Assembly (NCBI RefSeq): GCF_044324875.1
Contig: NZ_CP172185.1
Reading direction: 5' to 3' (one strand)
DNA length: 64,000 nucleotides
Origin: Escherichia coli
GTDB lineage: Bacteria > Pseudomonadota > Gammaproteobacteria > Enterobacterales > Enterobacteriaceae
A program made the translations under genes and the position numbers. How positions within the stretch are numbered: position 1 is the stretch's first letter; the number at the start of each line of letters is the position of its first letter. Positions 31,452 through 32,810 of this stretch are shown piece by piece. The notes beneath the pieces were generated by a model. It ran no database searches. It was not told where the DNA came from and worked only from the letters and a program-made list of their open reading frames with translations.

Positions 31452-32810
31452 ATGAGCAATTACGCACTGACACAAACTATCGTTACCGGCAGCGATCCGC
31501 GCGCCCTGCCGGAGTTCAGCGCCATCCGCGAAGAAATTAACAAAGCTAACCACCCGTCACAGCCGGAGCTGAACTGGAAACTGGTGGAATCGCTGGCGCT
31601 GTCGATTTTTAAGGCCAACGGGGTGGATTTGCATACCGCCACCTACTATACGCTGGCGCGTACCCGTAATCAGGGGCTGGCAGGGTTCTGCGAAGGCTCG
31701 GAACTGCTGGCTGCGATGATCACCCACGAATGGGATAAATTCTGGCCGCAGGGTGGCCCGGCGCGGACTGAGATGCTGGACTGGTTCAATACCCGCACCG
31801 GGAATATTCTGCGCCAGCAGGTGTCCTTTTCCGAAAATGATCTGCCGTTGCTCTACCGCACGGAACGGGCTTTACAGCTTATTTGCGACAAACTCCAGCA
31901 GGTGGAACTGAAGCGCCAGCCGCGCGTGGAAAACCTGCTTTATTTTGTGCAGAACACACGCAAGCGGTTTGAGCCGCAGCCCGGAAACCGTACTGATACG
32001 GCGGCACAGACCACGGTCCGGACGCTGGTCTATGCGCCGGAAAGCACGGCTTCCACCACAGCGGAAGCCGTGCCTCCCCTGCCCGACCTGCCGGAAATGC
32101 GGGTGGAGGTGCGCGGTGTGGCAAATAACGCCGACAACGTTAGACAGGGCAGCACGGTAAAAGGTTTTGTTGCCGGTGCCGCCTGTACTGCCGTTATCGC
32201 GGCAGTACTCTGGTGGTGGCTGGCGTATCCGATACAACGGCAGCTTACGCAAGTCAGGGATACCGCACAGGGAGCCGCCACCGCCTGGTTGGCCTCCCCG
32301 GTACTGAAAGAATATGAACAGTACCTGCAACAGCTTCTGGATGCCCCGCCACTACAGCCGCTGGAAACCGGAATGCAGATGATGCGCACCGCAGACACCC
32401 TCTGGCCGGAAAGCCTGCAACAGCAGGAAGCCAGCAGGATGTGGAGCAACACGCTGAGAAACCGGGCGCAAGCCAGTCCGCAGATGAAGGGCTGGCAACA
32501 GGCGCGGCAGAATTTGCGGGACTTTGCGGATCTGATGATGAAAAAGGAGACGGAGAAACAGGGTTTCACCCTCTCGTATATCAAGACGGTGACCTGGCAG
32601 GCCGAACGGTTACTGAATCAGGAAACACCGCTGGAGTACCTGCTGACACAGTACCAGGAGACACGCGCACGGAAGCAGGACACACAGGCGCTGGAAAAAG
32701 AGATCAACGAACGGCTGGACGGGCTGTTAAGCCGCTGGCTACTGCTGAAAAATACCGGACAGGATATGGCAACGGATACCAGAACCGAACCTGTCCATCC
32801 GACTCATTGA
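31452..32810 (+). CDS. tagA: TssA-like accessory protein (TagA/VasL-like) with ImpA N-domain and one TM helix
   Basis: About 452 aa from ATG 31452 (MSNYALTQTIVTGSDPRALPEF...); ImpA_N-like N-terminus plus hydrophobic segment VAGAACTAVIAAVLWWWLAYPI; the track ORF (31311) is over-extended into tssM. Confidence 0.65.
   Translation: MSNYALTQTIVTGSDPRALPEFSAIREEINKANHPSQPELNWKLVESLALSIFKANGVDLHTATYYTLARTRNQGLAGFCEGSELLAAMITHEWDKFWPQGGPARTEMLDWFNTRTGNILRQQVSFSENDLPLLYRTERALQLICDKLQQVELKRQPRVENLLYFVQNTRKRFEPQPGNRTDTAAQTTVRTLVYAPESTASTTAEAVPPLPDLPEMRVEVRGVANNADNVRQGSTVKGFVAGAACTAVIAAVLWWWLAYPIQRQLTQVRDTAQGAATAWLASPVLKEYEQYLQQLLDAPPLQPLETGMQMMRTADTLWPESLQQQEASRMWSNTLRNRAQASPQMKGWQQARQNLRDFADLMMKKETEKQGFTLSYIKTVTWQAERLLNQETPLEYLLTQYQETRARKQDTQALEKEINERLDGLLSRWLLLKNTGQDMATDTRTEPVHPTH

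What the first reader, a model, noticed from the sequence alone, without database searches (positions are those of the whole stretch)
31452..32810. Membrane-anchored TssA-like protein in addition to canonical TssA
Two proteins with ImpA-like N-terminal regions are encoded: TssA (26452-27894) and a second one carrying a single hydrophobic helix (VAGAACTAVIAAVLWWWLAYPI) and a Gln/Glu-rich C-terminal region. This matches the TagA/VasL class of TssA paralogues thought to anchor the distal sheath end, and it dictates sheath dynamics for this system.
Basis: partly seen in the sequence, partly recalled or inferred. Interest (0 to 1): 0.35.

Follow-up and report, generated by a model that had tools for sequence, protein, structure and literature searches.

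The report
Known T6SS sheath anchor TagA/VasL
This gene encodes an ordinary, already annotated member of the TagA/VasL family, a membrane-anchored relative of TssA that (by homology) stops and holds the far end of the type VI secretion sheath, in the well-known aspV-linked secretion island of Escherichia coli.

Summary
Window 31452-32810 (+) is a real 452-aa gene. It starts 10 nt after tssM and ends 17 nt before an hcp gene. [quoted passage not shown] A canonical long TssA (ImpA_N + VasJ) lies at 26452-27894.

The window is the aspV-tRNA T6SS island of E. coli. It is about 100% identical to EAEC 042, where RefSeq calls the same coordinates "VasL domain-containing protein".

- The protein aligns end to end (29% identity, E 5e-54) with the 455-aa ORF at the EAEC Sci-1 locus that I take to be the characterised TagA.
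- Both folded domains are under purifying selection (dN/dS about 0.1).

- The C-terminus is Gln-rich but not Glu-rich.
- The quoted helix carries a strain-specific Q257L change.
- "Dictates sheath dynamics" is inferred from homologues, in which TagA is accessory.

One point stays open. The helix looks like a true N-in transmembrane span, which would put VasL in the periplasm, whereas the literature calls TagA peripherally membrane-associated.

Verdict: already known, low interest.

The parts
31452..32810 (+). tagA/vasL gene: 452-aa ImpA_N - TM - VasL protein (TagA/TsmA class)
   Evidence: ORF; Pfam ImpA_N + VasL; PGAP 'VasL domain-containing protein' at the same coordinates in E. coli 042; 29% identity over the full length to the EAEC Sci-1 TagA-locus ORF
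31440..31446 (+). Shine-Dalgarno AAGGGGA, 5 nt before the ATG, overlapping the tssM stop codon (31439-31441)
   Evidence: Sequence read directly; no promoter-like or terminator-like site between tssM, tagA and hcp
31479..31976 (+). N-terminal all-helical domain (aa 10-175) with the TssA Nt1 / ImpA_N fold; presumed cytoplasmic module that binds TssA and the sheath
31977..32156 (+). Disordered Thr/Ala/Pro/Val-rich linker (aa 176-235), variable in length (27-76 aa in the family)
   Evidence: pLDDT below 50; mean column identity 0.27; length range; relaxed dN/dS 0.28-0.77
32157..32234 (+). Basic flank plus single hydrophobic helix (aa 236-261; core 238-261) with family motif W-[KR]-G-F-x-A-G and a C-terminal aromatic belt and Pro
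   Evidence: Kyte-Doolittle maximum 1.95; hydrophobic segment at the same alignment columns in 49 of 52 homologues; K/R 2.9 on the N-flank against 1.3 on the C-flank; F239 in 42/52, G242 in 51/52, low hydrophobic moment
32221..32221 (+). Strain-specific SNP (T here, A in 042): codon 257 CTG Leu instead of CAG Gln at the C-terminal edge of the helix
   Evidence: close homologues from E. coli and related Enterobacteriaceae read WWWQ
32265..32756 (+). C-terminal all-helical, Gln-rich VasL domain (aa 272-435; Pfam match aa 288-432)
   Evidence: Pfam PF12486 86.4 bits; pLDDT 82-95; no solved homologue; dN/dS 0.09-0.13
26452..27894 (+). Canonical long TssA (ImpA_N + VasJ), the expected partner
   Evidence: TIGR03362 456 bits, PF16989 251 bits; PGAP tssA
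27914..31441 (+). tssM (PGAP start corresponds to window 28004); the membrane-complex subunit that, with TagA, recruits TssA in homologous systems
   Evidence: TIGR03348 942 bits; PMC6450956, PMC7545191
32828..33307 (+). hcp (tube protein), 17 nt downstream of tagA
   Evidence: PF05638, TIGR03344 204 bits
25704..26447 (+). vasI; completes the vasI-tssA(vasJ)-tssM(vasK)-vasL gene order
   Evidence: TIGR03360 267 bits

Best explanation
The gene encodes the TagA (also called VasL or TsmA) accessory subunit of the aspV-linked type VI secretion system of E. coli.

The protein has four parts:
- a cytoplasmic N-terminal domain with the TssA Nt1/ImpA_N fold;
- a disordered tether of about 60 residues;
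- one hydrophobic helix that fixes it in the inner membrane;
- a conserved all-helical VasL domain.

Inferred mechanism, by homology with EAEC Sci-1 TagA and V. cholerae TagA: the sheath is capped by the long TssA encoded four kilobases upstream. [quoted passage not shown] Binding stops polymerisation and clamps the sheath in the extended state until it fires. Loss of TagA should give over-long, bent or sliding sheaths and lower, but not abolished, activity.

Shown here: gene, domains, fold, helix conservation, synteny and purifying selection. Inferred only: localisation, partners and phenotype.
For: Domain architecture ImpA_N + VasL, both far above the Pfam cutoffs.

Helix: one hydrophobic helix, conserved in position in 49 of 52 homologues at 23-90% identity, with a basic N-flank.

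Homology: colinear, full-length match to the intact 455-aa ImpA_N+VasL ORF downstream of EAEC Sci-1 (29% identity, E 5e-54).

Context: translationally close-packed between tssM and hcp, in a cluster with all 13 core T6SS genes and a long TssA. The same tssA-tssM-vasL-hcp order sits next to tRNA-Asp in a divergent E. coli allele (74% protein identity).

Selection: dN/dS 0.17-0.21 overall and about 0.1 in both folded domains.

Published function of the class:
- stopping and holding the sheath, membrane localisation, hexameric foci (PMC6745524);
- the TssA-TssM-TagA interaction network (PMC7545191, PMC6450956);
- co-occurrence of long TssA with TagA (PMC7896307);
- the Nt1/ImpA_N region docks on the sheath (PMC11106082).
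Against: There are no experimental data for this cluster. [quoted passage not shown]

Identity to the characterised E. coli TagA is only 29%. V. cholerae TagA could not be retrieved for a direct comparison.

The primary TagA paper (Santin et al. 2018) is not in the library. The identity of L003:5071-6438 with the studied TagA therefore rests on its location within Ec042-4524-4555 and its architecture.

The role of the VasL domain is unknown, and its side of the membrane is unresolved.
Confidence: 0.82

Rival explanations
1. Same family, different geometry. The protein is a true bitopic inner-membrane protein (N-in, C-out) and its VasL domain is periplasmic. The distal sheath anchor would then be coupled across the membrane, for example to the periplasmic part of TssM/TssJ or to the cell wall, rather than being a peripheral cytoplasmic clamp.
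For: The helix is uniformly hydrophobic with almost no hydrophobic moment: Eisenberg mean hydrophobicity 0.7-0.76, moment 0.03-0.1. AF2 models it as one straight 34-residue helix, aa 236-269. K/R residues average 2.9 on the N-flank and 1.3 on the C-flank across 52 homologues; net charge is +2.1 against +0.3. An aromatic belt (W255, W257, Y259) and a Pro mark the C-terminal interface. VasL is under selection as strong as the N domain.
Against: [quoted passage not shown] I recall that the Santin abstract calls it a cytosolic protein tightly associated with the membrane; that is from memory and the paper was not readable here. No topology predictor or experiment was available to me.
Confidence: 0.3
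2. The main role is negative control of assembly rather than anchoring. TagA would compete with or sequester TssA at the membrane and limit how many sheaths start.
For: Overproduced V. cholerae TagA blocks all sheath assembly and holds TssA at initiation sites (PMC6745524, section read). TagA inhibits sheath assembly when TssA is absent (PMC7545191). The N domain shares the fold of TssA Nt1, so competition for the same binding sites is plausible.
Against: At native levels, deletion in both model systems gives longer, less stable sheaths and lower activity. That is the phenotype of a lost stopper/anchor, not a lost inhibitor. Nothing in this sequence discriminates between the two roles.
Confidence: 0.15
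3. A decaying, functionless paralogue in a silent island.
For: No expression evidence for this cluster is reported in the 042 genome paper. Frameshifted VasL-Hcp 'fusions' exist in databases. TagA is non-essential in model systems.
Against: The ORF is intact in 737 of 5426 complete E. coli genomes. dN/dS is 0.17-0.21 overall and about 0.1 in the domains. The architecture is conserved across Enterobacterales: Salmonella, Citrobacter, Enterobacter, Morganella, Pantoea.
Confidence: 0.03

Closest known systems
EAEC Sci-1 TagA (the ORF I identify at NC_017626.1 4884070-4885437, within Ec042-4524-4555; Santin et al. 2018, Nat Microbiol 3:1304)
   Same: Near-identical length (455 against 452 aa). Same order of parts: ImpA_N, linker, single hydrophobic segment, VasL. 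Colinear alignment at 29% identity, E 5e-54. Both accompany a long TssA with a VasJ C-terminal domain.
   Different: It belongs to a different T6SS and sits differently. Sci-1 tagA lies about 4 kb downstream of the core genes, after unrelated nuclease genes. This gene follows tssM directly inside the operon. 71% of residues differ. This copy has not been studied.
Vibrio cholerae TagA / VasL (VCA0121), class B / TsmA (Schneider et al. 2019, PMC6745524; Stietz et al. 2020, PMC7545191)
   Same: Same local gene order, vasI-vasJ(tssA)-vasK(tssM)-vasL. ImpA_N domain followed by a hydrophobic region. The Pfam VasL family that this protein matches is named after it.
   Different: The sequence was not retrieved, so no direct alignment was made. 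TagA-VC is only 19.3% identical to TagA-EC (PMC6745524). Bernal et al. treat it as a separate 'TagAV' form (PMC7896307).
Canonical long TssA / TsaC (window 26452-27894; EAEC TssA, PDB 6rju; B. cenocepacia TssA Nt, PDB 6hs5)
   Different: It lacks the VasJ ring-forming C-terminal domain. TIGR03362 scores only 86 bits against a 230-bit cutoff, and only over the N-terminal 210 profile positions. It has a membrane helix and a VasL domain instead. There is no pairwise similarity to the window's own TssA.

Membership tests
TagA / VasL / TsmA (class B ImpA_N proteins) | N-terminal ImpA_N domain (PF06812) with the TssA Nt1 fold | tested here: met
TagA / VasL / TsmA (class B ImpA_N proteins) | Hydrophobic / transmembrane segment after the N-terminal domain | tested here: met
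   aa 238-261, Kyte-Doolittle maximum 1.95; conserved position in 49 of 52 homologues; transmembrane-like hydrophobicity and moment. No dedicated TM predictor was available.
TagA / VasL / TsmA (class B ImpA_N proteins) | C-terminal VasL domain (PF12486) | tested here: met
   86.4 bits against a 27.3-bit cutoff, profile positions 1-146 of 147
TagA / VasL / TsmA (class B ImpA_N proteins) | Encoded in a T6SS cluster that also encodes a long TssA (ImpA_N + VasJ) | tested here: met
   TssA at 26452-27894; all core tss genes present; co-occurrence rule from PMC7896307
TagA / VasL / TsmA (class B ImpA_N proteins) | Full-length sequence homology to an experimentally characterised TagA | tested here: met
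   29% identity, E 5e-54, colinear over 450 columns with the EAEC Sci-1 ORF. The identity of that ORF with the published TagA is inferred from locus and architecture. V. cholerae TagA was not compared.
TagA / VasL / TsmA (class B ImpA_N proteins) | Membrane localisation and capture of the distal sheath end; deletion gives over-long, bent, short-lived extended sheaths | not testable with these tools
   Needs fluorescence microscopy of a TssB-sfGFP strain with and without the gene
TagA / VasL / TsmA (class B ImpA_N proteins) | Physical interaction with the cognate TssA (and with TssM and the sheath) | not testable with these tools
   Needs two-hybrid or pull-down assays; no multimer structure prediction was available
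Canonical TssA (TsaC; TIGR03362) | C-terminal VasJ oligomerisation domain (PF16989) and a full-length TIGR03362 match | tested here: not met
   No PF16989 hit; TIGR03362 86 bits against a 230-bit cutoff, N-terminal part only

The most novel reading that the evidence does not exclude
The conserved hydrophobic helix is a genuine N-in transmembrane span. The strongly constrained, Gln-rich VasL domain would then lie in the periplasm. TagA would be a trans-membrane coupler linking the cytoplasmic distal sheath end to a periplasmic partner (TssM/TssJ or peptidoglycan), contrary to the prevailing picture of a peripherally attached cytoplasmic clamp.
Probability: 0.3. Interest if true: 0.45.

Novelty: already known. 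Interest (0 to 1): 0.1.

Why it matters
It matters little as a discovery. The gene is annotated in RefSeq, sits in a genome island described in 2010, and belongs to a protein class whose role has been described experimentally since 2018.

Its practical value is for annotation. 'VasL domain-containing protein' in the E. coli aspV T6SS can be read as the TagA-type distal sheath anchor. That predicts a long-lived, cell-spanning extended sheath for this system (the TssA-long/TagA mode, PMC7896307).

The one question worth an experiment is which side of the membrane the VasL domain occupies. The family-wide sequence features collected here favour the periplasm more than the literature wording suggests.

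Tried and rejected
- Direct BLASTP of the protein against the window's own TssA gave nothing (best E 2.4). The 'two ImpA-like proteins' claim therefore rests on profiles and structure, not on pairwise similarity.
- Santin et al. 2018 could not be read. A search for 'EC042_4550' found nothing. The locus tag of EAEC TagA comes from my memory only and is not used as evidence.
- I tried to obtain V. cholerae VCA0121 by naming ten distant representatives. All were Enterobacterales: Morganella, Moellerella, Pantoea, Phytobacter, Rouxiella, Utexia. I ran no further search on it.
- One paper's mention of 'VasL' in Enterobacter refers to the Tle2 lipase, a naming confusion, and is irrelevant.
- An apparent divergence of the window from strain 042 after position 34707 is only a 1-nt indel shifting my ungapped comparison; tRNA-Asp lies one base off.
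- I considered and rejected a second canonical TssA (no VasJ domain) and a pseudogene (dN/dS about 0.2).

Full report
**Observation**

The mechanical ORF list shows a + strand frame open from 31311 to 32810. The ATG at 31452 gives a 452-aa product. It is preceded by AAGGGGA (31440-31446), which overlaps the tssM stop codon at 31439-31441. The next gene, hcp, starts 17 nt after the stop. No promoter-like or terminator-like site separates tssM, this gene and hcp, so it is an internal operon gene.

Pfam gives two matches well above cutoff:
- ImpA_N at aa 12-113 (E 6.8e-20, 71.8 bits);
- VasL PF12486 at aa 288-432 (E 2.4e-24, 86.4 bits).

It is the only hydrophobic stretch in the protein (Kyte-Doolittle 19-residue maximum 1.95).

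The C-terminal 191 residues are Gln-rich (13.1% against 5.9% in the N-terminal part). They are not Glu-enriched (7.9% against 7.5%). The same holds across the family (Gln 12.2% against 6.3%; Glu 6.7% against 6.6%).

The 'canonical TssA' at 26452-27894 is confirmed: TIGR03362 456 bits, VasJ 251 bits, ImpA_N 28.8 bits.

**Where the window comes from**

The gene is 99.9% identical to a chromosomal gene in many E. coli genomes, including EAEC 042. There PGAP annotates the same coordinates as 'VasL domain-containing protein' WP_000073803.1.

The 21.5-kb cluster (13000-34500) is about 100% identical to 042 and other strains. It sits beside tRNA-Asp (34760-34836) and dnaQ/rnhA. This is the aspV-inserted 'third' T6SS of 042 (Ec042-0210-0226), described in the 2010 genome paper as widely distributed in E. 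coli (PMC2808357).

All core genes are present: tssB, C, E, F, G, J, K, L, H, A and M, two hcp genes and vgrG, plus tagH and vasI. The local order vasI-tssA(vasJ)-tssM(vasK)-vasL is that of the V. cholerae large cluster, as the gene names indicate.

Of 5426 complete E. coli genomes, 737 carry the gene over at least 80% of its length, in several allelic classes.

**Relatives**

Close homologues (72-100% identity) with the same ImpA_N + VasL architecture occur in Escherichia, Salmonella, Citrobacter, Enterobacter and related genera. An exhaustive HMMER scan found 803 cluster representatives at E 0.001 or better. Ten distant ones that I named were all Enterobacterales.

I located the EAEC Sci-1 cluster in strain 042. 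Downstream of it is an intact 455-aa ORF (L003:5071-6438) with the same two Pfam domains. It aligns colinearly with the window protein at 29% identity, E 5e-54. From its position inside Ec042-4524-4555 and its architecture, I take it to be the TagA characterised by Santin et al. 2018. That paper is not in the library.

**Anatomy**

An AlphaFold2 model built on a 52-sequence alignment (A1) has mean pLDDT 83.5. It shows four parts:
- an all-helical N domain (aa 10-175, pLDDT above 93);
- a disordered linker (aa 176-235, pLDDT below 50);
- one long straight helix (aa 236-269) that contains the hydrophobic segment;
- an all-helical VasL domain (aa 272-435, pLDDT 82-95).

The family profile matches EAEC TssA (6rju; sequence identity verified) at E 5.6e-11 and 6hs5 at E 7.7e-10. 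Yet the window's TagA and TssA show no pairwise BLASTP similarity. TssA's own ImpA_N score barely passes the Pfam cutoff.

The VasL domain has no solved relative. Only generic helical-bundle matches were found.

**The helix and the topology question**

In 49 of 52 family members, a single hydrophobic segment falls at the same alignment columns. It carries:
- the motif W-[KR]-G-F-x-A-G (F239 in 42/52; G242 in 51/52);
- a C-terminal aromatic belt followed by Pro.

Its Eisenberg mean hydrophobicity is 0.7-0.76 and its moment only 0.03-0.1. That is the signature of a membrane-spanning helix, not a surface amphipathic one. The N-flank carries 2.9 K/R on average against 1.3 on the C-flank.

By the positive-inside rule, this predicts N-in and C-out, which would place VasL in the periplasm. 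[quoted passage not shown] I cannot resolve this with the tools available. I report it as the main open point.

**Selection**

I ran Nei-Gojobori comparisons against a 94%-identical allele (NRG 857C) and a 74%-identical allele (SC480). Both are in the same tssM-vasL-hcp context next to aspV. Results:

| Region | dN/dS |
|---|---|
| Whole gene | 0.21 and 0.17 |
| N domain | 0.09-0.11 |
| VasL domain | 0.09-0.13 |
| Linker | 0.28-0.77 |

Both folded domains are functionally constrained. The gene is not decaying.

**Mechanism (inferred by homology)**

Published work on the class reports the following:
- TagA localises to the membrane and forms roughly hexameric foci at the distal end of fully extended sheaths. 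It prevents over-polymerisation and bending, and prolongs the extended state (PMC6745524).
- It works with TssM to recruit the TssA cap to the envelope (PMC6450956; PMC7545191).
- It typically co-occurs with long TssA proteins (PMC7896307).
- The Nt1/ImpA_N region of TssA proteins docks on the sheath (PMC11106082).
- TagA is accessory. The EAEC mutant keeps about 12% of killing activity (PMC6730261), and the V. cholerae mutant kills almost normally.

Applied here, the N domain would bind the TssA cap or the sheath end. The linker provides reach and the helix provides the membrane anchor. The role of VasL remains unknown.

**Verdict**

The feature is an already annotated member of a well-described family in a well-known E. 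coli island.
- the C-terminus is Gln-rich only;
- the quoted helix contains a strain-specific Q257L change;
- 'dictates sheath dynamics' overstates an untested, accessory role.

Interest is low (0.1).

Noticed in passing
window 32221 (codon 257 of the gene): This is the only difference from E. coli 042 in the gene, and it is nonsynonymous: CTG Leu here, CAG Gln in 042. Close homologues from E. coli and related Enterobacteriaceae also read WWWQ. The change makes the C-terminal edge of the membrane helix more hydrophobic. All listed E. coli hits were 99.9% identical, none 100%, so the allele looks rare.
   Followed up: partly
L003 5071-6438 (NC_017626.1 4884070-4885437): RefSeq/PGAP annotates the EAEC Sci-1 tagA locus as three pseudogene fragments (ImpA_N, 'POTRA', VasL). 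The 455-aa ORF is intact and matches both Pfam domains. This is probably an annotation artefact affecting an experimentally studied gene.
   Followed up: partly
window 32441-33307 (+1 frame overlapping the 3' end of the gene and hcp); proteins P0001, P0013: Databases contain 611-618-aa 'VasL-Hcp fusion' proteins that are 100% identical to this gene. They arise from frameshifts near its 3' end that read into the hcp frame. They could be sequencing indels or real mutants; this was not resolved.
   Followed up: partly
window 26452-27894 versus 31452-32810: The canonical TssA matches Pfam ImpA_N only marginally (28.8 bits, cutoff 26.9). The accessory TagA matches it strongly (71.8 bits). The two proteins have no detectable pairwise similarity.
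   Followed up: yes
window 33647-34432 (-): A 261-aa ORF lies between hcp and tRNA-Asp. It has a lipoprotein-type signal (…LLAGC) and no Pfam match. It is annotated 'hypothetical protein' and is conserved at this position in divergent E. coli islands (L005 7433-8218).
   Followed up: no
window 5380-12278 (-): A divergent arm of the island encodes VgrG (10320-12278), a DUF4123 adaptor (9481-10323), then a 523-aa ORF and a 336-aa ORF with no Pfam match (a likely effector/immunity pair). An IS-type DDE transposase follows at 5380-6501.
   Followed up: no
window 27914 versus 28004: The longest tssM ORF starts at GTG 27914. PGAP in strain 042 starts tssM 90 nt later, at the position corresponding to window 28004. 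The extra 30 residues precede the first predicted membrane segment. The true start is unresolved.
   Followed up: no
window 19037-20317 (tagH): The cluster encodes an FHA-domain TagH, but no PpkA/PppA kinase or phosphatase appears in the window. The 042 genome paper notes the same (PMC2808357). How this system is activated post-translationally is unclear.
   Followed up: no
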